The position numbers and the translations under genes were made by a program. A stretch of 64,000 nucleotides of DNA, taken from NCBI GenBank assembly GCA_008632985.1, contig QPGO01000006.1:310001-374000 (forward strand), written 5' to 3'. This stretch comes from Psammoneis japonica (Eukaryota). Below, one piece after another: positions 1 through 64,000 of the stretch. Positions within the stretch are counted from its first letter, which is position 1; every line of letters begins with the position of its first letter. The notes beneath the pieces are model-generated. The model saw only the letters and a program-made list of their open reading frames with translations, did not search any database and was not told the DNA's origin.

Positions 1-2000
1 ATTCCATCTTCTTGACCACATCAAGATGATTGAAGATCTGATGGTTGAAGCACTCAGACAAAGCTTTGGAGACACCACCTTGATCAAAACCTTGGAACCT
101 GTGCCAGCTGCTGCCAACATGTGGAAGTGTGCCACACTGAGATCTTTGTGAGCTGGAGGGAAGAGTTGCCAAAGAAAAATCTGTGCAGTCTTTGCCAGAG
201 TGGGAACTCAAAAGTGAGAGCTTCCAGAGACTTTTTGTCACTCTCAACATCTCCAAGAGCACTTGAGTTGCAAGTGTCTGGTTTGGTCATGAAAAGCACC
301 ACAGAACCAAGAAAATCCTTGCAGCCCCCAAAAAAGTCAGCTGGACATTGATTTTCTCTTTTGGCAATTCTTGGTTGAACCAAAAGTTGAGACAGCTGTG
401 ATGAAGCTTGACTTCATTGTGGGCAAGGTGCTGGCAGCAGTCAGCTGGGTTTTGTGCTGAGCTTTTGGGTTGGCAGCATCAAACTTGTGGAGATGGTCTC
501 AAATGAACTCATGACCTTGATGCCAGATTTGTTCTTGACATTGTGGGGCAAGACATTTCTTGGCAATGACCTTTTTCCAGTTCTTGGGCAGTTTGGATGA
601 AACAATCCTTGCCCAACTCATCAACAGAGGTGTGTAAAAAACCAAGTTGGCTGCTGAACTTGGAAGTCATTGCAGAAGCTTGTTGATGTCAACAAGAGCA
701 TTTGATTGAGCCAGTTGCTTCCAGGTGGTGTGGCACTGTGATGCAAAGCTGCAGGCAGTCGACAGACTCTTTTGCTTGCAGCTGCCATCTGATGTGGAGT
801 GACCAACATGACAAGTGGCATGAGGCAAGTGTTGGACCCTGCCATCAAAGAACCCACAAACTTGGAGTTGCAGCCATGGCAGCCATTGCTGGCTGCCTCA
901 ACACTGGCATTGAAGACACTGGGGCTTTTGTGCTGTGTCCCTCACATGGCAGCAGGGTGCTTTGGCAACAACACTGTGCCCAACTTGTTTCCGGGCTCAA
1001 AGCAAAATGGTCATTTGCGGTGATGACCTTGTGAGGAGAGCTGCGGGCTGTTCAGCTGAACACTTGATGTTCCTGCTTCTGAGCTGGAGTTCACCACACC
1101 TCCATGCAAGGGTGAATGGCAGCACCAGCACCAATTGGTTCAAAAATTGTGGTCATTGCTGCAGTTGCATCAAAAAGGCACCAATCTTGAGACATTGTCA
1201 AATTGAATTGCAGCCAGCCCCAACACTCTGCACATCACTTGTGCTGTCTTTCTGCACGCTGCTGAAGCTGTGCAGCCACATTCACACTGTGCAGTGTTGC
1301 AGAGCTGCAGCACCACACTTGCCAAATGCAGTTTTTGAGCTGACTTTCCTCTTCTCACCCAAAACATGCACACAGCACCTTGAAGCTTGCCATGGTCTGT
1401 GTGCACTGAATCTGCCATCAAGAAATGGGGTCCAAGCACAGAGACAAATGCCAGAGTGTTTTCTCAGAAACACACAAAACAGCCACATCAGAGCCCAGCT
1501 GCTGCCACTGAGCATCTTTGGAAGCCTGGTGATTGGCAAAACAGATGTTCTTGGCTGGAGGTGATTGACTGCAATGTGAGGCCCTGCATGTGACTCATCA
1601 TTCTGTCAGCACTGGTGTTTTGTGATTGAATCACAGCCACCATGGTGGCCGAGTGCTTTTTGAAATGCATGGGTGATGCTTGGGTTGTTTCTCAATTGGA
1701 TGCCACCCAAGCTTGCAATCCCAACTGCACCAAAAACAACAATTTGCAGTTGTGCTTTCATTTGAAACAATTGAACTGGCACCAGTGGGAAAAATGATCA
1801 AGTTGTTCACCAGTGGATTGGACAACATCATCATCCCCACTCCAGCTTCACGAGCCTCTTGCTTCTGGAAAGCACACCGCAGCCAATGCAGCCATGATGA
1901 TTGGGGTTTTCCAAATCAACCAAGAGATGCTCGCATGGCACTCAAGACAAGAGCCATCATGGTGGCAAACCGAGGCACATGTGAAAGTTGGCATCTGCTT
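1..2000. other. TA/CG-depleted island A (degenerate repeat or TE-like DNA, class unresolved)
   Basis: Only one TA seen by eye in 2 kb (635-636, in TGTAAAAA) and about ten CG. TG/CA-rich, with overlapping Cys/His-rich ORFs nearly lacking Tyr and no recognisable intact gene. TA resumes at about 2004. Confidence 0.8.
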
Positions 2001-2235
2001 GACTACAATGCTGATTTGCAAACAATGTTGGCACGCTATTCTGCTTCTTTTTTACTGAGGCGGTTCAAAAGATGGACAATGTTGTCATGGTGTTGGGAAA
2101 AGAAGGAAATGGCAGTGGGCACTGGATAAACAGCACGAAACGTGCTGGGGAGGTACAGTAAAAAAAATTGTATCGAATCAAAGAGCGATTGTAATCAATC
2201 TTCGTAGCTATGGCTCAAGTTTTAAAAAGTATTCA

Positions 2236-14063: not shown

Positions 14064-15304
14064 GTCACAGAGTATCGGTTTGTCGTTCCATGGGCTGCAA
14101 AGCGGTGCATTTCCCTCGATTTCGTCGGCTAATTGGGTTCCGCAACGGGCGATCGATCAATTTTCAAATTTTGATTTGTCGATGCATGACCCAACGGCCG
14201 CCCGCAACGGACGGGCGCGCGACACAGTCAGGACGTGCGAACGCCGGCTAGAGTCTACGTGGATATTTCTATGCGCAAATTTTTCCCAAGACAATCGTCG
14301 TCAACTTCAACTTCGATGTGCCGATCTAATTGAAAAGGATGGTCCGCTTCGCGTCGGGCTTCGGCGCCTTTCATGAACGACGTCAGCTATGAAATTTACT
14401 CTTCACATTAAGTAAAGATGACATCATCCTTACCCCACCATCTATTCGGCCCGTGCGTCGCCGCCGCCGAGCAACTTCAAAAATTGTCAAGTCCCCAAGA
14501 GCCAAGAGACGTGAAAAAAGACAACACACTGTGTACGCAAACAGCACGAACCGCCCATGACAGCGGCAACTTTCGGACTGGTGAGCATAAAAATAACACC
14601 ATTAGAACCGCAGCATTCTTGTTAGTATGTGTTCGTTGTTTCTCTTTTTGTTCAATGCAAGTCCGACACTCTTAAGGGATAATTTCTTCAACTTTCAAGT
14701 AGAAAGTTTTGCACCGTCCTTCTCGGGCCATTTAGTCCACCTATACTAAAATCATTTAGCTTACATATAACACCGTTCAATCCGCTATATCTAAATTACT
14801 CTCTATGGTAGTTTCTGTGTCATAGAGATCTAGTTTAGGGACCTTATGCATGGCCATCTGCGATGCAAGAAAAGACCTGAAAAATTCTTTCAATACAACA
14901 GGTCCATTTTGGAAAGAAGTACGCAAAGCGTTACCATTTCCTTCTCGACACGTATCATAACTACTTCATATTATCGATTGATGCTACTTCTACAGTCATA
15001 AAGTAGAGAGAAGTTGTCCAAAACAACCACACACCGCCATGGCGACTTGCACAAAAACAATTCTATGTACGCGCGGCTTCAGTAGAAGTACTTGACGTGA
15101 TGCGTCTGATACAGTGTACAGTACTGTACGTACCGTACTGTAGGTAGATTGCGTGCGTGCGGCTACCGTACCGGTAGTAGCTGGGGGGGCAATAATGATG
15201 TCAACATTACTTATTGTGAACAACAAAGTTTTTAGCTGACGTCGTTTGTCCAATCAGATTTCCATACCGCCGTTATGACCGCACTTACCATACCGCGGAT
15301 ACGT

Positions 15305-17085
15305 TTTCTGGCCTTTCTCCTTCCATGTTGCTCATGACGCCGCCATCGGCGATCGTCGCCATCAGACACCATCAGCAGCACTGGCATTCACAGCATTTTC
15401 TTGTGTTGTGAGGTTCATCAGCTCCTGTGGTGGTTTCAAAAGGCGGAAGGCGAGGAGGCGACAACTCTGTGTGAGGCGAGATGTGCTGTGAGCGAGGAGA
15501 GAGGAGGAGAGTCCCAGCTCCAAGCAAGGAGAATTCACAAGAACACATGAACCAACAAGTGTTTGCAACAACACAGGAGTGCTTGCTGGTGCCTCAACTG
15601 ACGAGATGATGCCAAACATGTCCCTGAGCACTGCCGCAGCTGGAGAGCAGAGAGCACACCTCAAAGCCAAAAAATGAGAGACAAGAAGCCACAGCACATC
15701 ATCTGTTGCTGTTTCCAATCATGATGGGAGCAATCAGCTGAAAAAGACTCACAATTCCTGTGAATTGTGTGACTTGTTTTGTGGCTCTTCTTTCAGTGCC
15801 ACAACGCCACAGCGCCACAATGCAGACCTTTGCTGTGCCAAGTCACACAGCGCTGGTGACACAACAAGTGGGAAAACCAAAAACAATGGCACTCCCCCCC
15901 CACTGATGGTGGTTGCATCAAGCCTTGCAACCCATCATTTCAAAAAGCAAAACTGTGTGTCATTCCATCATTTGTCTTTGGCTGCCTGCTCCATCACTCG
16001 CACAGCTTTTGGTGGGCCAAAAAACAGTGCACAGCACCACACAGAAGCTGTTCTTTCCTCTGCCTGAAAAAAAGAGTGGCACACAGCATGCTTGTTCTGC
16101 CAAGCCTGGAAGTCATGCCTGACTTTCAAAGCATGCCAGAGCCTCTGTCCAGCCAAACTGTTCAGCTCAAAGTGTTGCAGCAGGCGGTTGTTGTCGATTT
16201 TCAAAAAAGCTGCAGGAGTGGCTGCCAATTGTGAGTGCAAGAACAAAGATGGAAATTTGTGGGTTTGGAGACATTGGCACTCCCTGAGAAAGGAAGTGCT
16301 GTCACCACTTCAGGGTCAACAGGTGAGATTTGTCATGCTCAAAGCACTCCTCTTTGTGTTTGCTGCCCCTTGCTGCCTCCAAATTGATGTTCATTTGGGG
16401 TCAACATGCTTGCTGCATCTGCCTTTCTTGTGAGAGGAAAGGAAGGCCAATCCCTTCAAAGAGATTGCCAGCGGAGGATGCAAAGGGAGCCAATGCCTGT
16501 TTTGCCACCATGATTTTGATCTCTGGATGCCTGGACTGTGCTCTGCAGAACTGACCCTGGTGGTGCATGCCGGCCATCTGCGTGCTTTTTTTCTTGTTGA
16601 TGTGGAACCTCCGATCTCAAAAACATGTGAGATGTTTGCACAGAGATGCTTTGCCATGCACAGTTGAGAATCCTCTAATGCCCATGCATTGCAACCAGTG
16701 CACCAATGCTCTTTTCCTTGCCACCTGCTGGCAAGAATTCAACAGGGCTGCATGTCTCAGCGGTCAGTTTGGGGCAACATTGCCAAGCCATGTGGCGGCA
16801 TTTGGTGTGCCAAGTTTCTGCAGGGCCACATTGGGATCACTGGTGCCTTGACCCAATTGCATGTGAGAGAAAATGCTGTGCCATTGCTGGTTGTGGTGGT
16901 GTTTTTGTTCGTTGTGACAAGGGAAGACTCCACCCTTCTTGACAAACGTCTGTCCAGTGGCATGTTGACGTCGTTCGTGGGGGGCGCGGTGCACAGTTTC
17001 GTTGTCGGCACGCCTGAAGGATGAGTGACGGCGTCATTCAAGGAGCAATGACCATTGAAGCCATTGTGCATGACAGTTGTTCTTC
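15305..17085. other. TA-depleted island B (degenerate repeat or TE-like DNA)
   Basis: One TA seen (about 16676) in 1.78 kb. CG is rare in the core but frequent at both edges. Confidence 0.8.
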
Positions 17086-17199
17086 TGTAACTAGCGTTGA
17101 GACAAAGACTAAGAACACCATAGAGTAGTAGGTTACAGGTTATCACTTGCAGACATTAAAGGTCGTGGCGGTTTTACGTTCAGCATGCATGGGTTTTGC

Positions 17200-18950: not shown

Positions 18951-18979
18951 CATCACGCCTGCTGTGTACCCATGACATG

Positions 18980-20470
18980 TGGCATCCGACCCAACAACGG
19001 TCGCTCTGAAAATGTGAGGAGGAGCGCAGAAGGCCCACAATGCATTGTGCCAGTGTGGCGTGTTTTGAGATGTTTCACAATCACGAGCGTCACTCGGAAA
19101 CTCTTTTGCCTTGCTGAGGATGCCGACGGCTTTTGTGCTGATCCGAGTCTTGGCAAAGTGTCGCATCTTTTTCGAGACCGACGAGCTCTCAGAACAAGGT
19201 GTGCAACCCACACTTGGTGGGCAGAAACTCGAGTAGAATGATTTGGATTGATGGTTTTGCCTGAGTGAGCAGGTTGATGCCACGACCCCACGACCCCACT
19301 GGTGTTGCAACTCCAACGTCGATGATGAGGTGCAGATTCCGATGCATGGTGTGATTCATGGGCAAATCATTGTCGTCACGTGTGGTTGGCGCCATTGTGA
19401 AGTTGTTTTGAATCTAAAGAGACTCCATGTGACATGAGACTTAAAACTCTTTTTCTCTGCATTGTGCAAAAGATCGTTTCTTGTTCTTGACGGTGTGCAG
19501 GCTCAAGCCAGGTCGCTGCCAAACGGATTCGTTGTTGCTTCACCAAGACTGCAGAGATCGAGTTTGTGTCTTTGAAGTTGCTGTGGGGGCGGCAGTGGCA
19601 CTGTCACAGCAAACAAAAAGACGAAACAAAAATCCAAACAAGATGATGACAACGGTTGCGCCATGGGCGACAGGCCCCAGTGTGGCAAAGATGGCTGCGG
19701 GTGTGACAATGGCAGCATCGGTTGTTTCCAGCAAGCGCCCAATCGATGATGAATCCTTTGAGTGGATGTGCACTGCGCAGTTTGGCAAGTGACATGAATC
19801 CCAGCATGGCTGCAAGTGAAGTCATGTCACCCTCCATGTCGTCCATTGGTGGCATGCAACAGTCACCCTGTCGACAATCATCGTTGTTTCGCATGGCGGC
19901 TCTTGCGAGATGGCAACAACGACTGCAAGAAGAAGAATCATCATCATCATCAGAAGAAGAAGAAGACATGTCTTTTTCCATTGATCACATGGCGGAGCAT
20001 TGTGATTTGCACACGATGACGACCCATTGGAATGGACAAAAATCCATCAATTGTCATCGTCAAGAGCACGCAGCATGCCACAATCCAAAGAAACCTTGTG
20101 GTTGCATCTGTGTCTCTAGAGAGTAGAGTGCGAGCAGTCATGTGGTCGGAAGCTCAGCATCGCTCCGGCCCACCACCGTCGTAAATGTAGAACACATCAC
20201 ATCAACCACAAACACTGCAGAATTCAAAAGACAATCAGTTCCAAACAAGCATTGTGTGCATACAGAGTAGGTGTCGTTCGCAGCATCATTTTGACGAGTT
20301 CTTTCCATTCCGACGCAGCTAAATTTCCCCAAAAGCAGAATTCAAATGTCACGTGCAGGATTGCTTTTTTGTGTTGTCTCACGACAGGTTCCCACATTGG
20401 TGAGGCCGCCACGCACATGTGGACCACAGCGTTTATTTCGGCCAGAACCTTTTTGAGCTCAACAAAACTT
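18980..20470. pseudogene. TA-depleted island C, containing a decayed gene-like sequence (about 19640-20120, + strand)
   Basis: Few TA but many CG. Tyr-free frames such as RWQQRLQEEESSSSSEEEEDMSFSIDHMAEHCDLHTM. Confidence 0.55.
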
Positions 20471-20568
20471 GCCATGCTGACATTATTTCCCTGCTTCGTT
20501 CAAATTCGTCCTCGTCGTCGTCAAAATCGTCTTCGAAATGCTTGTGACGAGTTGGAGGCAGCTCTTCA

Positions 20569-33600: not shown

Positions 33601-33702
33601 CAGTCGTCTACTAGTAATGTCCCCAACTATCTTTTAAGTGACGCGGCAGAATCAATCGAAAACAAGGCTCAACATCGGCAGTTTGAGGAGAGCCTACTGT
33701 AG
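30634..33702 (+). CDS. PH-domain, coiled-coil protein with a PDZ-like C-terminal region
   Basis: PH motifs AGYLLKLG...FKRRFFVL...PRGCINL...EEWFEAL; acidic and coiled-coil middle; GSRLVAFDGVSL...RPLTLSFRD. Confidence 0.85.
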   Translation: MSQQRHDNHKIRMEIGGYYLDDDDEIQHQEPLVLDPARPISQQQTPPQEGMVQKFLQAATSKPTTRFIKQRKQDTTEQQQQDDDEVYIDSYYYTAAKWAQDPTCVVYAGYLLKLGTRIVEFKRRFFVLTRPISYLYYFLSPQDVEPRGCINLQNCKVQKDEAGNNRIHVTLSNSNQVIVLEARNQQIQEEWFEALQNNHEACLEELRMAKDTQEEQSQTIQTLQETIRELTSKQQTAESRASACETKLQHLEQGIRLLTRHVTVQKDDESAEQKDTEQEEEEPEERSDEDEDDSSLVNGVNQSQASRENALLDSADEDSTRTPEEDLLTVMDQTPFPGSFSSLYCACNQLKQFANLSANEASTAVHDLHQAHATLQKLQKRMTKAEQYLFQLWQDNCNQRKSLKKLKQEKKVLVKEIKNSLMMVSNSSNQNRATTTNSSSAERNTTNEATTQTTAAEDEQLLNELEEHVMTSIKLHEELLLAGGGTNTANFVRDSFSSSSQPAVIASLMDNIDDDDGSMESNDDDDENSMAPSLVSFVQGGKCAQESKDDGETANGQEAGLDTIESDTVRHFEGADQARATEEKDLSSNDDESATVNVNLNRSAADETPEPTLRLSQHDVSKEDDDDDSTETEEENPLVALDATEDEQDVPAVPTRQSLVTQNGRATSRLISPLADVVVVDGRRQEGESVETTSNKDDGRVYHLLFYSRKIGIQFQKVPIPQNNSTTKTGLLTHAMTSDLGPAVIVNGQEKTASELQRIAAISRLATDKEDGSNDFEQQQHCPVVGPVDAVLVCGLVGFDHSANPTTCCRRPKLGSRLVAFDGVSLEVGRWTFESVRKAIQARGRPLTLSFRDDMLTTHQREILTRAIVDIKGRTPTREQHYHHLTPPPSIPRPPSSDSEPRILVGSSGRIHEVVGRDDADDQSSVSTMASVSIASDRQSVGGGDRGVPSRRSPYSFSEAGSSSIVSAALVGPLMANLMSNLSLTPSNGQSSTSNVPNYLLSDAAESIENKAQHRQFEESLL

Positions 33703-50152: not shown

Positions 50153-50419
50153 GACTTTTCAATAGTACTAAACTTATAATGGGGACGCAGTTTAGGTGAT
50201 GAGAAGATCGTAAAACAGAGTTGTTTCGCCGTCGGTCATGGTCATAGTAGCGCCGGCTGTTGTCTGTTGTCGACTTCTGTGCGGTTTGGTGCGGTGTGCT
50301 TTCGTGGGAACAACTCGCGCATGTCAGATCGAGATCGCGCGAGGTCATAAGAGACCCGGATTACGATTCCAAGATCCAAGATCGAAAAGAAGATCTTGAA
50401 TCTCACGAAAAACACTAAA

Positions 50420-51340
50420 AGCCATGATGTTGTCGATTCTTTGGCTTTGAGCCAGTCTCCTGATGACAGCATGAGTTGTGTGGCAGTGGAAACAAAGCTT
50501 GCATCGCTGAAGCGGCTGCTGCAGTTTGTGGATGAGCGAAGTCGCTCCCCGTCAATGCAGCGCTCATCTTGCGCATCCACAAAACTTGACAAGCCAGCAC
50601 TTGGATGGACCGGCTCCACTTTAGCATTGGGCAAGGACAGTCCATTGGATGGCTACCTCAAGAGGCAACAGAAGCTTGCGGCGGCCCTGCTTTTGCATCC
50701 GTGCACAAAATGCACCCCCACTGCAAAACGCCTTTGATGGTGTCAATTTTGGAAGCAATCCATGGGGTGTGTTTTCAGCAATGGCTGACAATCACCTTCA
50801 TTCCTGGGAAGTGGGTGGTGCAGAGAACGCAGCACAAGTCTCGCACTTTCGACTTGCCAAGACAGAGAAGAAGGAGAAAACTTTTTGAGACAGAGCTGAA
50901 AGCTGCCATTGGAAGCTGCAGGTCCATCCATGGCCTTGGCACAACACCCAAGAGTAGGTCGCTTGAGTTCTGGTTTTGGCAAAGTGACTCTTTAGACCCA
51001 CTCTGAAAAAATGGGTTTGCTTGAGATTTGAGTCCCACAGTTGCAGAGAAGAACAAGCAAATTGAGGTTTTCATCATCATGCATGATGGCAGTTGCTGCA
51101 ACCATCCAACAAAATTAAAGACTGCCTCGTAGAAGCCCACTTGATTTCATACATTCCACTCCCCATTCTCCCATCCATCGGAAGGAACAACAGAATTAGG
51201 GCCCTGCGGACTCTCTGGCAGAGCAGCAGGCCGCCTTGCTGAGCTCACTGCATGTCGAAAGCGACACACAGACTGTCAGACAAGCAGTTGACACAAAGAT
51301 CGCGCATCCGCAAAAAAGATCCGCATTCTTTCTTCTTTCA
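50420..51340. other. TA-depleted island D (degenerate insertion between divergent genes)
   Basis: Fewer than ten TA in about 0.9 kb; TG/CA-rich; no intact gene. Confidence 0.55.
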
Positions 51341-51364
51341 CAGCACAATACGTGCATACCACCC

Positions 51365-52920: not shown

Positions 52921-53049
52921 CAGAGATAGGACAGTAACGCGCTCGAAATCTTTTCCGGGGTCACTTACTCTTAATAGAAAAATTTACACTTCATGATGTT
53001 TCTCCACACTTGCGAGCCCTACTGTACAAGCCATGCTTCTCTTGTATGT

Positions 53050-54990
53050 CAAGAGAGATTGGAGATCTCAAAGAAGTGGCCAGACAATGGGGGGGGCATC
53101 TGGACAGCTGCTGTCAAAAGAATCTTGCTGTCGATCAGTGCGTCCAGCAAAATGCGTTTTCCGCACAACACCAGCATTTTCCGAGAGTTGCACCATTCTC
53201 TTTGTGCATTGGAGGAACAACATTTTACACTTTGTGAGGCATTGATGCTGAAAGCACAAATGATTGAACAACACAAAAAGAGAGATCTTGATTGCAAAAA
53301 CCACTTGACACAAGCAACTTGTTGTTCTCACTGGGATCCAGATGATGCTTTGTTTTTTGATCACCAAGGGGTGCAGATGGCATGGCAAATGGTGGTGGGG
53401 TTGGTGAAATTGGGTCATTTTTCAGGATGCTGGAAAGTTTGTTGGGCAACAAACTGATCTGCAAGGGATCAGTTGACAGCATGGATGATGTTCTGAAGAC
53501 TGCACTGGGAGGGAGCAATGGAGTGGCAAGTGTGGCACCACAAAGCAACAACTTTTTGTTGGGGAAGAAGAGATTGTCATTTCTGAATGGCCAAAGCCAA
53601 AGGAAGCAGGCAGTGGGGAAAGGTTGTCACAAACAAGAAGGCATCAAAGGCATTGAAAGGTGTGTTGAAAAGAGGAAGCAGAAATCCATGGCAGAGAAAG
53701 AGAGGTTTTGGCAAAAAAGCAGATTTTGAGGTGCCAAAGAGAGCAGGAGAAGGTGGTGGGCAAAGCAATGCATTGGGGCTGGAAACCAGGTGATCAATGA
53801 CAGTGCTGAAAATGGGGCAGTGCAAATCTCTCTGTGGTTGAGCCATGACCTGCTTTGTGGCTGACATTGTGAAATTTCCTTTGGTGCTTCCCATGGTCGT
53901 GTTCCCAGGCTGAGGAGTTTGCAGGGGAGTGAAGCAGTGGACAGCACCAGCTTGAGTCAGATGCTGACATCTGTGTGGCACACTCAAGTCTCAAGTGGCA
54001 GCTGCAGCAGAAGGTTTGCAAGTCTCCGCAGCGGTGGTGGGCTGCAACCGCATCTTGGTGCAAAAATCAGAGAGAGTGGCCAGCAGTCAGGGGGGCACAA
54101 AGAGAAGGCCATCTTGCAAAGAGCAAAGAGTTGGAAAGGGTGGTTTTGCAATTTGATTTCTGTGCAAGTCCTCAGCAGCACATTGTTGTGAGATGGGCAA
54201 AGCGTGGGATTGGGCTGATGCATGAGAAAACTGGTGGTCTTGCAGCTTGTTGTGCCACACTGCAGCACAAATGGTTGAAAGAGGATGTGGACAGAATGCC
54301 TTGTCATGTGACCCCCTGGGCAGCACTTTTGCACTCCGTCTCAAGCCCCTTGGTGCTCCACCCTGGTGGCTGCTCAAGTGCATGCACATGAAAAATCATG
54401 ATCACAGCTCCCTGCCAAAAAGCTGTCTGCTTGACAGCGTCAAACATTGTTGGGAGCCTTTTGGCATCACAAAGCACCTGCACCCAAAAGACATGCATGC
54501 AACAACAGCAGCAGGCAAAGCAGGAGCGCGGCTCATTTGCATGCTTTGGTGGCTCTTGTGGAGCTGCTCCAGAGATTGGAGCGATGGCCATCATCATCAT
54601 GAGGTGGAAATTGGGCGCCAATCCAGGCGGTCATTTTTGTTGTCGTGCAGGGTTGTGGGCACCCACTTCTTGAGAAAATGACGAGCAAGGCACACAATTT
54701 TTTGACACCAACACACATTTGAGATGGCCGCACATGGGCGCCATTTGCCTGGTGCTAGAGCAGGAATCAGGTCTCCTTCGAGCACCCAAGGCAAGCTTGC
54801 ACATGGCGATGACTGACCAGCCATCTCCAGAGCACTTGTGGGAAGGGTGCATTCATTGCAGCCGCTGCAACACAGCACTCACTGTTTGGTGCCACAGCAA
54901 TGCCTCGTGGTGTGTTGTGGCTGACTCGTGAGAAATCAACATTGTCAACACACAAAAAGTGGGTGGCGGCCAATGGCCCAAATCGGGTGA
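53050..54990. other. TA/CG-depleted island E (degenerate repeat or TE-like DNA)
   Basis: About two TA seen in 1.9 kb (about 53226 and 54756); dense Tyr-free Cys/His ORFs in all frames. Confidence 0.8.
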
Positions 54991-55380
54991 CCTGAATTAC
55001 GGAAAACGCGCGTAACCCTTTTGCTCAGAGGTCGTGCCTGCAGACAAATGACAATGATCATGTATGAGTTGGTTGGCGCGGTGCAGGTCATTGGGTGGAG
55101 TTGCGTTCGTGAGTCGTGAAGGAAAAATGTCATTCGACGAAGCTTTCCGTTGTGAAATTGACAACGGCTCTTTGTAAAATTATACTCATATTCGTCATTT
55201 TAAAACACTCAATTATGATTGGTCCCGCCAGTTTTGTAGACACGACTCCAACCTCGAGGAGGTCGAGAATGCTTCTTTTTGAAAATTATTGACCGCCGAC
55301 GGAAGCCATGCGCATCATACTGCTGTAGGGCCTACAAACACTCTACTGTAGAGTGGCTTTCTAATCCATCGTTTTTGACC

Positions 55381-55623
55381 ATGACGAGGATTGTTGCTGC
55401 GCTCACGCTCTTTGCATGGGCCTTTTTGGTCATGGTTGTTCCAGCTCAAGCCGGTTACCACGTTTTGCGTCGCCACTGGAGGGAAACTGTCAACGACAAG
55501 GAAACGAGAAACAATAAGATTGCTGGAGACAAGACGGCCCAAGAATTTGCAGAGAGGCAGATGATCAACGAGGAACAGAGGATGGCGCAGGAACTGTCCA
55601 TGTCTATGTCCATGTCTTTCTGA
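55381..55623 (+). CDS. Small secreted protein ending in an SMSMSMSF motif
   Basis: Clear signal peptide MTRIVAALTLFAWAFLVMVVPAQA; 80 aa; C-terminus RMAQELSMSMSMSF. Confidence 0.7.
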   Translation: MTRIVAALTLFAWAFLVMVVPAQAGYHVLRRHWRETVNDKETRNNKIAGDKTAQEFAERQMINEEQRMAQELSMSMSMSF

Positions 55624-55913
55624 CGTTGAGCCTGTATGAGATCTCCGAGGGTCAGTCGATGCGTGCAGTGAGGATTGCAGCGGTCGGTGGCTGCTTAGAT
55701 GATGAAGAAAAGGGGGGAACAAACTTGTCGTGCAGTGACAAAATCAGAATGTAGGCTTTTTAGCCAGCTTTAGCCAGCATCTTTATCTTTATCTCCTCTT
55801 CATCTGCCGTGTGTGTTGTCATTTTCTTCCACCAATTGCGCACTGGATCTAGAGATCGCCCTACAGTCCTGGGGGTTGAAAAAATTGCTCCATGACCCAT
55901 GACCGCCATTTTG

Positions 55914-55957
55914 CATCTTGTCTCGCTCATGCGACATCTTGTCTCGCTCATGCGACA
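55914..55957. repeat. 21-bp tandem duplication
   Basis: CATCTTGTCTCGCTCATGCGA, two exact copies, inside a short TA-free patch (about 55865-56035). Confidence 0.9.
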
Positions 55958-56304
55958 CCTCGTCGCTGTGGGTTGTCATTCGGTCAACAACATGTGTTCG
56001 ACCAGGGCCCGAGACAGAACCGCAGCGCCACTCGCTCTAGTAAACGACCTGTGCTATTGTGACAGAAGCACACTTAAGACTCATGCTAACGAGAATTTCG
56101 GCATGGTCGGAGACGGTTACATAAAAATATGGTATGGACAAAAGGCGGACGACGATGAAGAGTTCAACTCTGTGGATTCGCATCTATCACTCAGAATCAT
56201 TCACATTCTTCTAACTTACTGTTTCGAATGCCGGCACATGGCTGTGTCTCACGCAAAAGATATTGCGAAAACTGTGTGTACAGTAGATGGAATCTATGGG
56301 CGTG

Positions 56305-57048
56305 CTACCACTTCGTCACTCGAGTCTCTGCGGAGATAAGATGAGAAGACACGACACGCATAGCATTCCGCATTGTGTGCCCCGCGTAAGTGAGAGACTT
56401 GGACGACAACAAGAATGCAAATCACAATAGAATAGAAACTATCACCCACTCGTAGCACATACCTTGTGGAAGTCGATCTCGCAAATAGTACAGCTTCGCT
56501 CGCTTAATTTTCTTTTTACCTTTGTGTACGAAATTCTCCTCCAGCACCTTGAGAGACTTCAAGAGCGGCGAGTGCAGAGGTATTTTGCGTTCAATGGTTT
56601 CTCCAAACACAACGTCCCGCAGAATCACAGAAGATCCCAAGCCACGATTAACTCGTCCCAAGACAACACCACGAATCTTTTCGATATCCTTTCCATTCAC
56701 ACCGCCTGTAGCAACCATTTCAATCTCAATCGCATCACCCACCCGAAAGGGCACCTTGAGGACGGACGGATTCTTTTCTGTAGATTCGAGAACCGATTCT
56801 TGGTTGAGAGTTGCAAATAGTTTCGAAGCGCGTTTGCGAGGCGACTTGAACTTGGGTGAGGGATATCGAGGGCGTTTCCCGTGATGAAAGTACGGCATGT
56901 CTCGAGGAGCGACACCGCCGGGAGGAGAAGTGCTGGTTGAAGTCGTGCTACTCATGCTAGCAGCGTTCACGGTACTACATGTATGGCCCTTCATGAGGGA
57001 TCTCCATGGCCTTGTGATTGTTCCCATGGATAAGGTGGGACGCAACAT
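56305..57048 (-). CDS. rplS: Organellar (probably mitochondrial) ribosomal protein L19/bL19
   Basis: PFRVGDAIEI...RGVVLG...GLGSS..LR....GETIER..PLHSP...KRAKLYYLRD. Intron 56462-56328 (GTATGT..CAG) gives the C-terminus ETRVTKW. N-terminal presequence-like extension. Confidence 0.93.
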
Positions 57049-60000
57049 GGCTACGATGCAGTTTTAAGGACTCCTCCCTTTCACCTCGCTTATGACATTG
57101 CTTTGTTATGGATGGTGCGTGATGTCGCTCCAACTTCGATGGTGGCTGGGTGCGTGTGCGTTTCGCGTGCGTCCGTGAGCTCGCTCGCTTTATCCCGTGT
57201 GCTTGTGCTTGGCTCTGTGCTGGTTTTCATGGCCAACGTTGGAATGTGCAAGAAGTTGAGGTGGTCACCTTGGGAGTGGGGGTCTTCATGAGTGGTGAAG
57301 TCAGGGACATGGTGAAAAATCTTTGGCAGATGTCATCCATCTTGGAGGACACGCCGGCGGTGCTGAACTGTTGGGCCTGACAACGAGTGCACCAGCCAGA
57401 AAATGTCTCACTGAGCCAGCAGCCAATGAGCATGATTGTGAGTGCCAGGACATTGGCCAGGCACATGGCCATTGCCAAGCTGGGTCAGAAAGAGTGAGCT
57501 CTGATGTCAAGGCAGGCTTGCACCCAGCTTTGCCAACATGTTCTGCCATGGTGCAAAGATGCACAAGCACTGTGCCTTGGACTTGAGATCGCAGAGACCT
57601 TGGAGTTTCGGCATGTGGCTGGCACCACCAGGGTGTGACAAGATGTGATGAAAAGTGGCAGCCCAAGTTTTGAAGGGGCACATCAGTGAGCCATGCATGT
57701 GGTGTGCTGGGTTGCAGTCACACCCCGCTTGTTGTTGTTCTTCTCTGAAAGATGGGGCAACAGAAATGCCATCTGCCACACCAGGTGCAGCCCAGTGCCA
57801 TCATGTGTGTGTGGCAATTCAGCTCATTGCCCACAAAAGAAGTGCAAACTGGCAAGGGCAAGAAGTTTCATGTGGCATTTCTTGCCAGACACTTTGGAGC
57901 ATTTGTGAGAGGACACATCAAAGAAAAAGGCTCTCGAGCAAAAGCTTGCCTCTCAAGCCTCACACACAGTGGGTGGGGTGTGATTGCCTTCAGTGTGCAA
58001 CCTTTGAGTTGTCATTGCAGAAACTGGCAAAGCTTGCCTTGCTCATTGTGGGTGGAGGTCAAGGGTGGTGGTGAGCTCTGCAGGTCTCAGCTGCAGCATC
58101 GATGGTTGCACGAGCTGTGCCAGCAAGATGCTGGCACTGAGGCTGACTTTGCACCCACACAGCACTGGGTGGCATTGGCTCAATTGGCAGATGCAAAGGC
58201 CTCAAGGATGTGTGCTGTTTGTCACACAGTTTGAGGCCTTTGAGGAAAGGGTCATTGCTGACTTTTTGATCTGACAAGCAAAAAACCAAGTGCAGCCACT
58301 CCAGAAGTGTTCTCTGCACCAGCCTGGACAAAGCCCCTGTGCCCCATGAAAAGGAGATCCCAGACAGAGCAAACACCATGGCAAAGTCTGGCTGAACTGC
58401 CAAAGGCCTTGATGGTGGTTGGAGAGTCAGCACCTGCAGTGCAGCCCCAGCCTGGCACCACTCCCACTGGCGAGCCATCAGTGTGGCAGAGGCAGGAGCT
58501 CAGCAGCAACATGGTGGTGGGCACTGCACCCTGAGCACCATCATGGCCACTCATGGCCAAAATGGTGGTGGCATTCTTGCCCTCTGGGTTGAACAGAGCC
58601 CTCAAATCTGTGCAAAGCTGATGAACAAGTTGAGCGATGTTTCAAATGAATGTTTTGAATTTGTCCCAGCAGGTGCATTAGAATTTCTCAGATTTTGGCA
58701 CCAGACACCACAGATCATTCACCCCTCAGACATGCTGTTGGCATGCCCAACAAAGCACCCAAACTGCAAACGTGCACAAATCATTTTAAGCTCTTGCAAC
58801 AACAGCAGGTGAAAAGTGCGTGGTTGGTTTGAAAACTTCCAATCATTCTGGAGCTGCTCTGGAAATTGCAGAGTGATGGTGTCATGCTGCCATGCCAGTT
58901 TGGTGTCTTTCTTTTGGGCATGACTCACACAATCGTGTTCAGAAAGGCCCTGGGCTGCTGATGGGTGGTGTGGAAAGCACAAAAAAAGAGTGGTTGTTTG
59001 TGGCTGGTGGCATTGATCAGGCTTTGTCGTGCATGCTCTTGGTGGACTGCAGTGTGCACGTGCACACGTGCGTGACACATGCACAGGGAGGCAGCTGCAT
59101 GGACTGACCAATGGACCGCAGCGCCAGATTTTTTGATTTTACGATTGTGCTGCAATGATGACACTCTCTTCTTTGTGTCATGGGTTTTGTTTTCTCACAT
59201 CATGTGCGTCATTGTCTTGCAAATGAGTTGTTGGCGGTGATGTTGCTGTTGTCCAACACATCATGACAGCATGAACGCATGCACTGAATGTTTGTCATGG
59301 AAGTTGAGAAGCCCCCTGATGCTGCTGCTGCAGCCGCCCCTGCTCCAGCAGTGCCTGATGCTGCTCCAGCTCTGGCTGCGGTGCCTGCAGCTGCAGCAGG
59401 TCCCACTCCAAACCCTGTGGCAGCAGCCCCCGCAGCCACAACCCCACCTGCGCATGCACCAGCTCCTTCTGTCAATCTGGTCCAGGTGGCTCCCACTCCT
59501 GCCGTTCCAGCCCCTGGTGCCCCCACCCCGGTTGCACCAGCTCCTGCTGTTGCTGCTCCAGTCTCTCCAATGCCCACCCCCAAGAACCCAACAAGAGCAC
59601 CAGCTCTGCATCTCAACTGTGACCCCATCATGCAGCAACACAAGAAAACAGAGAAGTTCCTCCACATGAGGAGCAAACCTGTTCACTCCTTTGGCTGAAG
59701 GGCGTGCATTTCCATTCTTGTGATTCCATTTGGACCATCAACAATGAGGATTTTTTTGCAAGCAATTTCACTTTTTGGATGCCATCCAATGTCAAGGACG
59801 TCTTGGAAATGTGGATCCAGTGGCCAACTTTGCAGATGGGTTTCCAGCTGTGCAAAGGATCATCTGCTCTGGTGACAGCAGGACAACCATGTAAATTTTC
59901 AGAGGGATGTCTTTGGCCAAATGCACCCAGAACTGGCACATTTAGTCTCTCACATGCCCACTGCTTGTGCCACATGCACAGGGTGTTGGCAGAAGCCGCC

Positions 60001-61595
60001 ACCATGGGAGTTGGGATGAGCACACCATTGCAGCAAGCAGAGCTGGTGAGAGGGACAAAACAATGTGGCCAAGAGAAGAGAAGTGGTCTTTGGCACAGTC
60101 CATGCAACCTTTTGCTGTTGTCTCAACAGGGCAATTTTTTTTACAACCTCCCCCACATGATGGTCATTCCCTGCATTTGTCTTCAATTTGTTCTCAATTG
60201 GACACCCCCAGGCAAGCGCATGATTGCATGTTTGTCACAGGTGGTCCCGCCGTTGACGGTGAAGGTGATGCCAAACCAATCAATTCCTGCAGCACTTTGC
60301 CAGGGAGGATCCATCTGCATCACAACAAACAAGAAGCTGCTGATGCAACAAACTTGCTTGCCATGTTTGTTCGTGCTGCAACATGTTGCACTGGGAATGA
60401 ACAAAGTCTCTCTCTGTCTTTTTGATCATGTCACAAATCAGGCTGAAAGTTCCAGGTTTTGAAATCTTTTTGCAAACCCCATCTGCATGGAATTCTGGTT
60501 CCATTGATGAGGACGGGCATCAACTTTCAAAATCAATGACTTGCAAAGCTTGGCTTTCCAATTTAAGACACAGACACAACCACATGCCAGACCCACTTTT
60601 GTTGGTCATCAAGGCCATGGTTTCCTTTTTTGCTGGCCAGAATTGCAAGCTCATGCCACGTGTGTGTTGTCCTTCACACTTTGATGACACCAGTGAAGAA
60701 AACAAGGACAGGGACTCAGTTTCTCTGGAGTCAGAAGAGGAGGGCTTGGGGATTGATCATGTCAGCCATTCTCCTGTTTTGATTTGTTTCATGGAGGCCA
60801 AAGCTGGTGTAGCTTGAAGGCAGGCATTGCACGCCTGAGTGAGACTTCCTGCATTCTAACTCTTGGAAGAGTCCTGAAAGTGAAACTCTGCCAGTTAGAA
60901 GACACATGGCTCTGTTGGCCAGCCATCTCCATTGTTCATTGTTCCAGGAAATTTTTGCATTCTGGTGAGTCAGGAAGTGGCTGCATTGTGTTTCAGATGG
61001 TGGCCAATGACACTTCCACTCTGCTCATCTCTGCCGGCACTCTGCTGTGGTTGCCGCAGCTCTCTGGCTGCTGGCTGCTGCTCTGGCTAGAGCATGAACA
61101 GAGAGTGGAGAGCAGAGAGAGATTTTTCTCTGTCACACACAGCACTTCTGATTGACCAATGGATGGACGGGACCAGCACCAGATTGTTGATGTCATGATG
61201 ATGTAAGACAGACATGGGCACATTGTTTCGACAGAAAATGGAAATCTTTGCGGCGCCAACCAACATTCAACAGTGTCGTTCAACACACGATGCATGCACG
61301 CACCGGCAAATGCCAACACCTTCAATGAAGGACTGCTGAGAAACATGAATGAGCAAGAGCATGTGCAAAAGCCATGATGATCTTTTGTTTTGCACTCCTT
61401 CTTGCAGTTGCTGTCAGCAGCTCTGTTGAGGTGTTCAGTCCTGTGCAACCCAATGTGGTCCGCAGAACAAAAAGCATCAACAAGCTTTGGTCTGACCGAG
61501 GCGGAAGTTCCCACAGAAGCCATGTTTGCAAGGGGCAACTGTGTGTTTTGGCTTTTTGGTGCTTTGGGGGGTGCTGGAATTGCCTGAAGTGCACT

Positions 61596-61637
61596 GCCCG
61601 CCCAGTTCCAACGTCACCTTGAGTTTCAGAGTCTCAA
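61596..61637 (+). repeat. 42-bp direct repeat, copy 1
   Basis: GCCCGCCCAGTTCCAACGTCACCTTGAGTTTCAGAGTCTCAA, identical to 63959-64000. Confidence 0.95.
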
Positions 61638-61689
61638 AGAAGAGGGGCCCACCAAGGGGGGCAAAAAACTCGGCTCACCAACGGCCTTT

Positions 61690-62154
61690 TTGGGTCATCC
61701 CCAAGATGTCTGCATTGCCAATGTGGAGCAAATTGTCAACAATAAATTGACAGTCAAGCAAATGGTTGACAAGTTCTCCATGGAAGGCATTCACCTGGCT
61801 TTCAAAGGACATCTCAACTTGATGGCGTTTCAGCAAGCAAACAAGGATGATGCGATTTTTTACAGTTTTGCTCAAACTGCCAACAATGTTGGCCCAACAG
61901 TTGCTCAAGAGAAGATCAATGTCCTCAAGACTGGGAACTTGGGAGTTTTGAAATCTGACTTGATTTTTTGCAAGGCAAAACAGTTCTTGGCTTTGTTTTT
62001 GCTTTTGTTCTTGTTGGGTGTTGCGGACATCATTGCGTTTTCCGACGTCTACAAAGGATGGTTTCCTGACTGGCCTGGTGGATTGAATTTCCCCATTGGC
62101 ATGTTTGCGGAACCCAATGGCAGCCCATTCAGTGTTCCTGACTGCTGGATCTAA
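61690..62154 (+). pseudogene. 5'-truncated, mutated fragment of a host-like membrane protein gene
   Basis: Protein-like frame with no ATG start, a TM helix, and the C-terminus YKGWFPDWPGGLNFP...PDCWI-stop. Resembles an uncharacterised algal protein tail (recollection, not searched). Confidence 0.55.
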
Positions 62155-62211
62155 TGATCACAGAACAAATGTCATTTCGCCAAATGCAAAGTCCCAACCT
62201 GTCGATGACAC

Positions 62212-63003
62212 TTGATTCATCCACGGGGGGCAGCACTGACAAAGAAGCAGCACATGGACGATGCCGACCGCAAGCAGGCCAAAGTCGAACCCGGCTGCTG
62301 CTCACTGGATGATGACTCTGTTGTCATTGCTCTTGAAAAAACACCTGACTTTTCTCTGACGTCCACGCTTGGCCTTGAGCATGTTGCCGACCCAGCGAAA
62401 ATCGGTCGCTCTGTTGCTGTCCCTGCTAACGGCAACTGTGGGTGCCACGCTGTGCTGAAGGGACTGGAGGAGGCTAGCTCAATCAAAAAAGGCACTTGCA
62501 ACAAGGACATGACTGGTTTCCGAAAACACATGCATGGTTTTGCTGCACAGAACTTTGAGGGCTTGTGCGGTTGGCCCTTGGATGATGGTGCAGGTGAGGA
62601 CAGAGGTCTCTTGGCGGCTGCGTGCGATGGGAAAGTCATCGGGGAATTTGTTGTCGACAAGAGGAATGAGCACAATGCTGGTGCAAGCCGGAAAGATCGA
62701 TTTCTAAAACTGCTTGCTTGCATCTGGAAGACTGGGATTGACTTCAATTCTGGTTGTGGCAAAGGTTGTTGGTGTGATGCGAGTGCATGCAGCACCATTG
62801 TCGCTCTCAAGTGTGAGCAATTGATTGTCTGCCATGGAATGGGAAGCAACAAAAACACGTCCATGTGCCATCATTCCAATGGAAAAGTGCAGCTGTTGTT
62901 TGTAAGAGACACTTGGCTCTCTCCTCCGGCCAATTCCATCACCACAACCCACGACGGCGGCGGCCATTTTGAACACTTAAGTCCAGCAAGTGCAAAAGGA
63001 AAG
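62212..63003 (+). pseudogene. OTU-like cysteine protease remnant (TE-associated type)
   Basis: VPANGNCGCHAV matches the OTU Cys box (V.gDGNC.yhA). W-x-D helix region and HDGGGHFEHL His box. No Tyr in about 265 aa. Confidence 0.65.
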
Positions 63004-63958
63004 GCATGTTGTTGTGTGCTTGGCCAGAGTCATTTTCATTTTAAAAAAAGCAACCTCACAATTTACTCCCATTGTGCTTGCTTGCATCATTGGGACATTC
63101 TCGACTCCGGCCGTGAAGGATGTGGTTCCTGCCATTGCCACCAAAGCGAGCACCGAAGCTGACAACAATGAAAAGGCAGCGGTAAGTTTTGAGGTGTGCC
63201 ACAGTTCGTCATGCAGTGCAAGGCAATCCAACCATGTCATGTGCGAAATGAGTGCAGATTCAGCAGCAAGACTCGTTCCATTGCCGCAACAACTGAGCCA
63301 GCCTGCCGTCTCGGACTTGGGACTCACTCAGCATTCCATCCAAGCACCTTTTGGGACATTCGGCATTCCGTGGGAATGGAAGGCGGTCAAGGTTTCATTT
63401 CTGGTGGCCCGTCTGTCCGCCTGTCGGTTTTCGTGTCTCAAAGCCACAGAAAAATTGAAAATTTGGGTCGCGCGCATCACTCATCACAAACCGCACATGC
63501 CAATGGCGTCACTTTGGAGTCCTCATTTCGCGTCAACCACAGATTGAACCATGGGTGCACCATCTCCTGCTTCCACATTGTGGAGGACGAACAAGTTGCC
63601 GATTGATTTGGCCATTGGAGCCATTCGAAACATTGCCTCAAAGCTTCATCACCAGAAGACCACACTTCAAACTGATGCCGATGGCAGTGCCGGCAGCGAC
63701 ATCATGAGTGTCGACATTGTGCCCCCTCGACAGCAATTAAAAGTGGCTCTGGACGCCAATCTCATTGGCAACAGGCATCTTGGAGATCGCTCTCCATTTG
63801 ATCCCGATCAAGCCGTCATGCACATCGCCGAGGCGTTGTCCAGCATTCACGTTGATGTGGCAATTTTCGCCAATCATCCAACGGAACGCCATCCGTCAAA
63901 ACAAGCAACTTGCAAGTGAAGGGCTGACGCAGCAAAGGCTGGTGTACAACTGACAATG

Positions 63959-64000
63959 GCCCGCCCAGTTCCAACGTCACCTTGAGTTTCAGAGTCTCAA
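63959..64000 (+). repeat. 42-bp direct repeat, copy 2 (truncated by the window end)
   Basis: Identical to 61596-61637. Confidence 0.95.

What the first reader, a model, noticed from the sequence alone, without database searches (positions are those of the whole stretch)
57195..64000. Candidate 'reverse-RIP' genome defence: targeted TpA->TpG/CpA (A-to-G) hypermutation of repeated DNA
Seen: six islands (about 1-2000, 15305-17085, 18980-20470, 50420-51340, 53050-54990, 57195-64000; roughly 15 kb) have TA strongly depleted. There is 1 TA in 2 kb in island A, 1 in 1.8 kb in B, about 2 in 1.9 kb in E, and none over about 57195-58675. TG/CA abounds, while adjacent genes have TA on nearly every line. 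Tyr codons and TAA/TAG stops vanish in all six frames, hence the dense Cys/His-rich spurious ORFs. Known: 5mC deamination explains CG->TG/CA but cannot remove TA, and fungal RIP does the opposite (CA->TA). Inference: a second, strand-symmetric process converts the A of 5'-TA to G in repeats. Candidates are a DNA adenine deaminase (TadA-derived base editors favour TA context), a mutagenic modified adenine, or biased T:G repair. It would inactivate TEs and erase TA target sites. I know of no characterised system that does this.
Basis: partly seen in the sequence, partly recalled or inferred. Interest (0 to 1): 0.92.

Follow-up and report, generated by a model that had tools for sequence, protein, structure and literature searches.

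The report
TA-erased DNA islands in a diatom
Six stretches of a diatom chromosome have had almost every TA step (and most CG steps) rewritten to TG or CA, the footprint of a locally aimed A-to-G hypermutation that has so far been described only in one unrelated alga.

Summary
About 14 kb of the window, in six sharp-edged islands, holds 0.5-6 TA per kb against 42 per kb elsewhere. TG+CA rises by the amount of TA+CG lost, so the sum of the four pyrimidine-purine steps stays the same. De novo contigs of a public DNA run reproduce the TA-free sequence at about 60-fold word depth, which makes a base-calling artefact unlikely. The one recognisable gene relic is an OTU-fold protease ORF at 62209-63159. 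It has Cys, His or other residues at all 11 columns where its relatives have Tyr, and six of those codons are TGY or CAY. This sets the direction as TA to TG/CA, on both strands. Two islands lost TA but kept about 80% of CG, so TA loss is a separate and faster process than methyl-CpG decay. The organism is a diatom. The same TpA-specific hypermutation was measured directly in the chlorarachniophyte Bigelowiella natans in a 2026 preprint, so the kind is no longer unknown. My searches found no report for diatoms. Repeat dependence and the enzyme remain untested.

The parts
1..2004 (.). Island A, cut by the window start. TA 0.5 per kb, CG 5.0 per kb, TG+CA 236 per kb.
   Evidence: no Pfam match in 6 read-through frames
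15300..17088 (.). Island B. TA 1.1 per kb, CG 21 per kb.
18967..20117 (.). Island C. TA 3.5 per kb, but CG is largely kept (45 per kb against 55 in the background). A partly depleted tail runs to about 21120. The island is flanked by a 16-nt direct repeat (15 of 16 identical) at 18931-18946 and 20111-20126.
50416..50955 (.). Island D. TA 5.6 per kb. Several diverged contigs of run X1 pile up here (summed word depth 531 against about 60).
53226..54998 (.). Island E. TA 1.1 per kb, CG 13 per kb. It lies inside one 4807-bp X1 contig that continues into the flanking genes, with 5 differing letters.
57191..62000 (.). Island F, older part. TA 3.1 per kb, CG 13 per kb. One 4222-bp X1 contig covers 57420-61625 with 14 differing letters.
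62001..64000 (.). Island F, younger-looking part, running off the window end. TA 6.0 per kb, but CG 43.5 per kb. Diverged copies pile up at 62143-63076.
62209..63159 (+). Relic ORF (317 codons, stop to stop) of an OTU-fold cysteine-protease family. It has 1 Tyr codon, 23 Cys codons and 22 His codons. At the 11 columns where relatives have Tyr, its codons are TGC, CAT, TTT, TTT, TGG, TGT, CAT, CAT, TTG, TTT and CAC.
61596..61637 (+). A 42-bp exact direct repeat whose second copy is at 63959-64000, cut by the window end. The spacing is 2363 bp and the two copies bracket the OTU relic. X1 contigs break at this point.

Best explanation
The islands are segments of non-host or silenced DNA in a diatom nuclear genome. 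At least one is a multi-copy element that carries an OTU-fold protease gene. A locally targeted mutation process acting on the DNA itself has driven them to near-total loss of TpA. In this process the A of 5'-TA on either strand becomes G, so TA becomes TG or CA. This is the same kind of process that was measured directly in Bigelowiella natans.

The most likely chemistry is enzymatic deamination of adenine to inosine by a deaminase that needs a 5' T. tRNA adenosine deaminases of the TadA/ADAT2 type meet that need at U33-A34. This step is inferred, not shown.

A second, slower process, the deamination of methylated CpG, removes CG in the same islands and also feeds TG/CA.

Because TA to TG/CA can never create an in-frame stop and destroys TAA and TAG, the result is a stretch of long, Tyr-free, Cys/His-rich false ORFs.
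For: Shown:
1. TA 0.5-6 per kb against 42.1 per kb in the background, with sharp edges.
2. TA+CG+TG+CA is 237-258 per kb in the islands against 244.7 per kb in the background, so the loss of TA+CG equals the gain of TG+CA. Converting all TA and CG of the background in silico gives r=0.94 to the island dinucleotide profile, against r=0.63 for the unconverted background.
3. Direction: ORF 62209-63159 has 23 relatives at E<=1e-3, the best at 1.7e-25. At 11 Tyr columns the window keeps 0 of 11, against 79 of 119 for the 12 aligned relatives (leave-one-out, Fisher p=1.6e-5). Six of the 11 codons are TGY or CAY.
4. Both strands are hit inside one gene: 2 TGY and 4 CAY. TG and CA interleave at random in all 7 island parts (runs-test z from -1.5 to +0.7).
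5. Independence from CpG decay: islands C and F2 keep 45 and 43.5 CG per kb (background 55) but only 3.5 and 6 TA per kb. If the ancestral densities equalled today's background, TA loss is about 8-13 times faster (inference).
6. Not a long-read artefact: de novo contigs of DNA run X1, at word depth 57-62, reproduce 50782-55585 with 5 differing letters and 57420-61625 with 14.
7. Those differences cluster in the islands: 18 letters in 7776 bp against 2 in 4107 bp (p=0.019). Twelve of the 18 interconvert TA, CG, TG and CA, including two TG-to-CA double changes.
8. Of 34 surviving TA, 1 is ATA and 0 are TAT, against 935 of 1990 in the background (p=1.9e-8). Against island composition p=1.4e-6. 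This points to an enzyme-like preference for the neighbouring base.
9. Precedent: 230 of 231 de novo mutations in two viral inserts of B. natans were A>G or T>C, and the preprint states that all of these fell on TpA (read).
Against: - Only one of the islands could be polarised. The other five have no recognisable relic: 0 Pfam matches in 36 read-through frames and 17 ORFs. For them the direction rests on composition alone.
- Foreign or mobile origin is shown only weakly: one OTU-fold multi-copy relic, a possible 16-nt target duplication at island C, and pile-ups of diverged contigs at D and F2.
Its platform is inferred from depth and contig length.
- After simulated conversion the islands still differ from the background: GC 79.6 against 56.5 per kb, GG 62 against 47, and AT 52 against 71. 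Either the ancestral composition was different, or further A>G changes occur outside TpA.
- No de novo rate, no methylome and no enzyme were examined. The window encodes no deaminase.
Confidence: 0.6

Rival explanations
1. The directional, local TpA to TpG/CpA process is the same, but the cause is a mutagenic base modification laid symmetrically on the palindromic TpA step of silenced chromatin. This could be a modified thymine that mispairs with G or a modified adenine that reads as G, by analogy with 5mC at CpG. It would not be a free-acting adenine deaminase.
For: TpA, like CpG, is self-complementary, and both vanish from the same islands. The strand symmetry is perfect and TG and CA interleave at random. 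The edges are sharp, as for chromatin domains.
Against: No modification data exist here. TA loss and CG loss are uncoupled in islands C and F2. The survivor bias against TAT and ATA fits an enzyme's neighbour preference, but it would fit a modifying enzyme equally well. As far as I recall, no such TpA mark is known in diatoms.
Confidence: 0.2
2. The islands arrived with, or are kept at, this composition. They would be foreign DNA from a source that avoids TA and CG, or host non-coding DNA under selection against these steps, with no hypermutation in place.
For: After simulated conversion the islands still differ from the host background in GC, GG and AT. Five of the six islands have no relic that fixes a direction.
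Against: No protein-coding source can do without Tyr codons and TAA/TAG in all frames. The OTU relic has lost 11 of 11 Tyr columns, with six one-transition replacements. The sum of the four pyrimidine-purine steps is unchanged. Differences between the reads and the window concentrate on TA/CG/TG/CA interconversions.
Confidence: 0.06
3. A sequencing or assembly artefact: modified DNA in silenced regions is miscalled, TA and CG both being read as TG on each strand, so the true sequence still holds TA.
For: The window disagrees with both runs at small indels (52383, 52399), as long-read assemblies often do. Three TG-against-CA double differences between the window and X1 contigs (54479/80, 57871/2, 62328/9) are what strand-specific miscalls would produce.
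Against: Independent de novo k-mer contigs of X1, at word depth 57-62 and 4.2-4.8 kb long, carry the same TA-free sequence. Only 2 of their 18 differences in the islands restore a TA. Such depth and contiguity are not expected from noisy long reads (inference, since the library type is not on record). The Tyr to Cys/His pattern sits in an otherwise alignable ORF.
Confidence: 0.04
4. ADAR-like A-to-I editing of double-stranded RNA from retroelements, followed by reverse transcription and insertion of the edited copies.
For: ADARs favour a U before the edited A, as stated in the preprint's discussion. A>G hyperediting of repeats is well known in animals.
Against: One RNA strand would be copied, giving A>G on the sense strand only. 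Here the sense strand of the relic shows both TGY (2) and CAY (4), and TG is about equal to CA everywhere. No reverse transcriptase or integrase relic turned up in 36 frames. Near-total saturation over kilobases is beyond what I recall for typical hyperediting.
Confidence: 0.04

Closest known systems
TpA hypermutation of integrated NCLDV and virophage DNA in Bigelowiella natans (Mettrop et al., bioRxiv 10.64898/2026.01.13.699255; I read the abstract, all of Results and Discussion, and passages found by term)
   Same: Exclusive TpA to TpG/CpA on both strands. Confined to discrete regions. Long-term footprint of low TpA with high CpA+TpG (124 clusters in that genome). Higher polymorphism inside the regions. 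Single-copy targets are possible. Many un-annotatable ORFs.
   Different: The lineage is different: here a diatom (stramenopile), there a chlorarachniophyte (rhizarian). Here depletion is almost complete (0.5-6 TA per kb), whereas their NCLDV insert still has 3.3% TpA. Here CpG is lost too, which the preprint's main text does not mention (0 occurrences). Here no viral hallmark gene is seen and no de novo rate was measured. The neighbour-base bias of surviving TA is not discussed in their main text.
Repeat-induced point mutation (RIP) of ascomycete fungi
   Same: Local, saturating, transition-only mutation of unwanted DNA that leaves a dinucleotide footprint and sharp islands.
   Different: RIP turns C into T, mainly at CpA, and so creates TpA and stop codons (abstracts seen). 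Here TpA is destroyed and no stop can arise. RIP needs duplicated DNA. Here the longest tracts show a single laid contig.
Deamination decay of methylated CpG in transposable elements
   Same: CG to TG/CA in silenced DNA. It explains the CG part of the islands.
   Different: It cannot remove TA. Islands C and F2 lost TA while keeping about 80% of CG. That diatom transposons are CpG-methylated is recalled, not tested here.
TadA/ADAT2-type adenosine deaminases and the adenine base editors derived from them
   Same: They deaminate an A that follows a U or T (U33-A34 of tRNA, recalled). The preprint proposes an ADAT2 homologue as the candidate.
   Different: No such gene lies in the window and none was tested. 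The natural enzymes act on tRNA. Activity on duplex chromatin DNA is not established.

Membership tests
Localised TpA to TpG/CpA hypermutation (B. natans type) | Changes are A:T>G:C transitions at TpA only, on both strands | tested here: met
   This is a footprint, not de novo events. The sum of the four pyrimidine-purine steps is conserved. Tyr columns kept are 0 of 11, with 2 TGY and 4 CAY codons. TG and CA interleave at random.
Localised TpA to TpG/CpA hypermutation (B. natans type) | Confined to discrete regions next to normally evolving genes | tested here: met
   TA-free runs of 1.4-1.5 kb end within a few bases of normal sequence. Flanking genes have TA obs/exp of about 0.4-0.9.
Localised TpA to TpG/CpA hypermutation (B. 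natans type) | Targets are foreign DNA (viral or mobile) | tested here: inconclusive
   There is one OTU-fold relic whose relatives come from marine eukaryote metagenomes and transcriptomes, pile-ups of diverged contigs at D and F2, and a 16-nt flanking repeat at island C. The other islands have 0 Pfam matches in all frames scanned.
Localised TpA to TpG/CpA hypermutation (B. natans type) | Mutation rate raised about 1000-fold in mutation-accumulation lines | not testable with these tools
   There is only a weak proxy: 18 read-against-window differences in 7776 island bp, against 2 in 4107 non-island bp (p=0.019).
Fungal RIP | C>T at CpA, giving an excess of TpA and a deficit of CpA/TpG | tested here: not met
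   The sign is opposite: TA obs/exp 0.00-0.14 and CA, TG obs/exp 1.5-2.1.
Fungal RIP | Acts on duplicated sequence | tested here: inconclusive
   The islands do not match each other within the window. E and 57.4-61.6 kb have a single laid contig, while D and F2 have many. The tool warns that summed depth is not a copy number and that holes prove nothing.
Methyl-CpG decay | Loss of CG with a gain of TG/CA and no effect on TA | tested here: not met
   CG loss is present, but TA is lost more completely, and is lost even where CG is kept. This process explains only part of the pattern.
OTU cysteine proteases (for the relic ORF family only) | OTU fold with a Cys loop and a His loop | tested here: met
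   An AlphaFold model of relative P0207 built on 34 sequences has pLDDT 81 and pTM 0.77. Every Foldseek PDB hit listed down to E 6.2e-3 is an OTU deubiquitinase, and 24 chains have E<=1e-3 (best 1.6e-4, TM by target 0.42-0.58, rmsd 8-12 A). Pfam OTU or Otubain match only 3 of 34 members, below cut-off. The motif naming is recalled.

The most novel reading that the evidence does not exclude
Diatoms and chlorarachniophytes share an old, chromatin-guided DNA adenine-editing defence. It marks incoming or silenced DNA, whether repeated or not, and erases TpA about ten times faster than methyl-CpG decays. It prefers TAT and spares TAA. It disables genes purely through missense changes (Tyr to Cys/His) and loss of stop codons. 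If so, it is a widespread and so far overlooked counterpart of fungal RIP in the SAR supergroup, and its enzyme could be found by comparing genomes with and without the footprint.
Probability: 0.3. Interest if true: 0.85.

Novelty: new member of a known kind. Interest (0 to 1): 0.66.

Why it matters
A TpA-directed hypermutation was first reported in 2026 for a single rhizarian alga, and its enzyme is unknown. Finding the same footprint, driven to saturation, in a diatom would place the process in a second major lineage. Diatoms are ecologically dominant and genetically tractable.

It would give a sharper motif, with a 3' T favoured. It would show that the process runs alongside CpG methylation decay but independently of it. 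It would also allow a comparative search for the responsible gene.

On the practical side, such tracts produce long, Tyr-free false ORFs that inflate gene counts, and they hide transposons and viral inserts from homology-based annotation.

Tried and rejected
- No whole genome is held, so no genome-wide scan, repeat intersection or deaminase search was possible.
- Rfam: 0 matches in the window.
- Pfam: no credible match for the 17 longest island ORFs (one sub-threshold CCDC23 hit, E 0.0036, 17.7 bits against a cut-off of 27) and 0 families for all 36 read-through frames of the six islands.
- The word-index homology search of the OTU relic found nothing. Only the exhaustive HMMER search did.
With a tighter alignment, and with the ORF alone, there were 0 confirmed loci in metagenome contigs (47, 64) and in viral contigs (48). 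No DNA of other copies could therefore be fetched for polarisation at the nucleotide level.
- The first structure model, built on 7 sequences, was useless (pLDDT 34). The PDB sequence search gave only E 0.038 and 0.56.
- The atlas and the PhoH search gave no help with taxonomy. The atlas hits for P0204 (clusters with OTU on 19-20% of members, score 0.90) are leads only.
- Earlier findings of this scan: nothing on this genome or sequence. The word hits were phage cases that do not bear on this.
- Sequencing runs: no RNA holder is listed. Run X2, from the same sample, has a contig that skips 56328-56462 (ends CT..AC) and was laid only on gene parts. It and X3 gave no cover over islands D, E and F, which proves nothing about expression.
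- The 30-letter loose end of an X2 contig at 57074 is not in the window.
- Clustering of TG against CA, which would indicate strand-processive tracts, was not found.
- No terminal inverted or long terminal repeats were found at the island edges, apart from the items listed under parts.
- Literature: four searches gave only the B. natans preprint for TpA hypermutation and nothing for diatoms. Papers outside the held library were not searched.


Full report
OBSERVATION

In 500-bp bins the window shows six islands where TA obs/exp falls to 0.00-0.14 and TG and CA rise to 1.5-2.1. The flanking genes have TA at about 0.4-0.9 and CG near 1. TA-free runs reach 1369, 1376, 1530 and 1488 bp, against a median TA spacing of 14 bp. 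At the background rate of 42.1 TA per kb, each such run has a Poisson chance of 1e-25 to 1e-28. The island edges are 1-2004, 15300-17088, 18967-20117, 50416-50955, 53226-54998 and 57191-64000, together 14,067 bp. Over all six frames of 57195-64000 Tyr is 0.10% against 2.42% in the gene-rich middle, and Cys and His are raised.

IS THE SEQUENCE REAL?

No genome is held. One public DNA run, X1, holds 89% of the sampled words of 52001-62000. Its de novo contigs cover 50782-55585 (4807 bp, 5 differing letters) and 57420-61625 (4222 bp, 14 differing letters). Their word depth is 57-62, the same as the contigs on the neighbouring genes. Only 2 of the 18 differences in the islands restore a TA.

There are caveats. 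The library type is not on record, and X1 may be the sample that the assembly came from. That the reads are accurate is inferred from depth and contig length. With these caveats, a base-calling artefact of modified DNA is unlikely.

WHAT HAPPENED TO THE SEQUENCE

The sum TA+CG+TG+CA is 237-258 per kb in the islands and 244.7 per kb in the background. TG+CA gained what TA+CG lost. Converting every TA and CG of the background to TG or CA in silico gives r=0.94 to the island dinucleotide profile, against r=0.63 without conversion. The leftover differences are more GC, GG and AG and less AT and TC. TG and CA alternate at random in every island part (z from -1.5 to +0.7), so both strands were hit without long one-strand tracts.

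Islands C and F2 keep 45 and 43.5 CG per kb (background 55) but only 3.5 and 6.0 TA per kb. TA loss is therefore separate from CpG decay. If the ancestral densities equalled today's background, it is about 8-13 times faster (inference).

DIRECTION

Pfam sees no credible domain in the islands: one sub-threshold match among 17 ORFs, and nothing in 36 read-through frames. The exhaustive HMMER search of the longest ORF (62209-63159, 317 codons) found 23 relatives at E<=1e-3, with the best at 1.7e-25. They come from marine metagenomes, one MMETSP transcript and similar sources, and none carries a functional name.

In an alignment with 12 of these relatives, there are 11 columns where at least 40% of them have Tyr. 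The window has H, H, H, H, C, C, F, F, F, W and L at these columns and no Tyr. The codons are CAT, CAT, CAT, CAC, TGC, TGT, TTT (three times), TGG and TTG. The relatives keep Tyr at 79 of 119 such positions in a leave-one-out count (Fisher p=1.6e-5). Other residue classes are kept at ordinary rates, for example G at 11 of 16, L at 9 of 14 and F at 5 of 10. The whole ORF holds 1 Tyr codon, 23 Cys codons and 22 His codons.

This fixes the direction as TAY to TGY or CAY, with both strands hit inside one gene. It follows from the genetic code that TA to TG/CA cannot create an in-frame stop and that it removes TAA and TAG. This explains the dense false ORFs.

WHAT THE ISLANDS ARE

The relic family has an OTU deubiquitinase fold. 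A model of relative P0207 built on 34 sequences reached pLDDT 81 and pTM 0.77. Every Foldseek PDB hit listed down to E 6.2e-3 is an OTU protease, and 24 chains have E<=1e-3 (best 1.6e-4, TM by target 0.42-0.58, high rmsd). The viral library gives OTU domains of nairoviruses, an iridovirus and giant viruses. Pfam matches are sub-threshold, in 3 of 34 members.

The relic lies between two copies of a 42-bp exact repeat, 2363 bp apart. Many diverged X1 contigs pile up on 62143-63076 and on 50468-50934, with summed word depth 250-346 and 531 against about 60. Of the 156 laid pieces, 115 are under 99% alike. The tool warns that summed depth is not a copy number.

Island C is flanked by a 16-nt direct repeat, 15 of 16 identical, that still holds its own TA. 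I estimate about 0.04 such pairs by chance in that region (my own arithmetic). It may be a target-site duplication.

The islands do not resemble each other. The two longest tracts show only one laid contig each. So mobile or foreign origin is plausible for some islands and open for the rest, and dependence on repetition is not shown.

FINER SIGNATURE

Of the 34 TA that survive inside the islands, 1 is preceded by A and none is followed by T. In the background 935 of 1990 are ATA or TAT (p=1.9e-8). Against island composition p=1.4e-6. Read as half-sites, the base 3' of the target A among survivors is A 32, G 20, C 15 and T 1. The process therefore seems to favour TAT and to spare TAA.

Read-against-window differences are denser in the islands: 18 in 7776 bp against 2 in 4107 bp (p=0.019). 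This count uses X1 contig records 1, 2 and 4-8. I dropped record 3, a diverged second version of 55685-56044, and the 153 pieces that the tool did not list. Twelve of the 18 differences interconvert TA, CG, TG and CA, including two TG-to-CA double changes, as expected if one ancestral TA or CG mutated independently in two lineages. Five of the other six are A/G or T/C differences after a purine or its complement.

ORGANISM

The named relatives of the PH-domain protein at 30634-33702 are all diatoms, among them Cylindrotheca, Pseudo-nitzschia, Cyclotella, Cyclostephanos, Skeletonema, Thalassiosira and a taxon whose name is cut off at 'Coret'. Identities are 26-53%. An X2 contig skips 135 bases with CT..AC ends, which is GT..AG on the minus strand. 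So the window is nuclear DNA of a diatom that has no close sequenced relative in the protein collection.

COMPARISON WITH WHAT IS KNOWN

A 2026 preprint (10.64898/2026.01.13.699255) reports a mutation-accumulation experiment in Bigelowiella natans. I read its abstract, all of Results and Discussion, and passages found by term. In that experiment 231 of 302 nuclear point mutations fell in two integrated viral regions, and 230 of the 231 were A>G or T>C. The preprint states that all of these fell on TpA. The rate was about 6e-7 per site per generation. There were 124 genomic clusters low in TpA and high in CpA+TpG. The authors propose an ADAT2-like deaminase.

The present islands show the same specificity, strand symmetry, locality and raised polymorphism. 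They differ in lineage and in near-complete saturation. They also differ in the accompanying CpG loss, which the preprint's main text never mentions, and in the neighbour-base bias, which is not in its main text either.

Fungal RIP has the opposite sign: C>T at CpA, which makes TpA (abstracts seen). Four literature searches found no report of this process in diatoms.

VERDICT

The reading as a TA-directed A-to-G hypermutation is supported for direction and strand symmetry. It is not established for repeat dependence or for the enzyme. It is no longer without precedent. I file it as a new member of a recently described kind. Interest is 0.66.

Noticed in passing
window 6805-8313 (+): An intron-less PIN+PhoH ATPase gene. 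Four unnamed proteins are 75-78% identical to it. All the named relatives are bacterial, for example Candidatus Sumerlaeota at 57-59%. This looks like a bacterial gene acquired by this diatom lineage.
   Followed up: partly
window 18931-18946 and 20111-20126: A 16-nt direct repeat (15 of 16 identical) that brackets TA-poor island C and still contains TA itself. It may be a target-site duplication of an insert, with the hypermutation confined to the inserted DNA.
   Followed up: partly
window 52383, 52399, 52404: Contigs of runs X1 and X2 agree with each other and differ from the window by two 1-base insertions and one substitution. These are probably small errors in the assembly.
   Followed up: no
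window 55685-56044 and 56463-57074: A second, diverged version is present in run X1 (349-bp contig, 26 differing letters and 41 gaps). A version about 3% diverged occurs in both X1 and X2 (20 differing letters over about 610 bp). This means two alleles or paralogues of this gene region.
   Followed up: no
protein P0205 (MMETSP transcript, relative of the ORF at 62209-63159): It keeps Tyr at only 4 of 10 family Tyr columns, with H at 2 and C at 1, and has raised Cys and His. This may be a partly TpA-mutated copy in another marine protist.
   Followed up: no
window 59300-59620: A Pro/Ala-rich low-complexity reading with short imperfect direct repeats (CTGCTGC-type) lies inside island F. It accounts for part of the 279-codon ORF at 59623-60459 and its neighbours.
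   Followed up: no
window 20117-21120 and 50955-51340: These are tails next to islands C and D with intermediate TA depletion (obs/exp 0.19-0.28) and near-normal CG. They may be regions where the process is incomplete or spreading.
   Followed up: no
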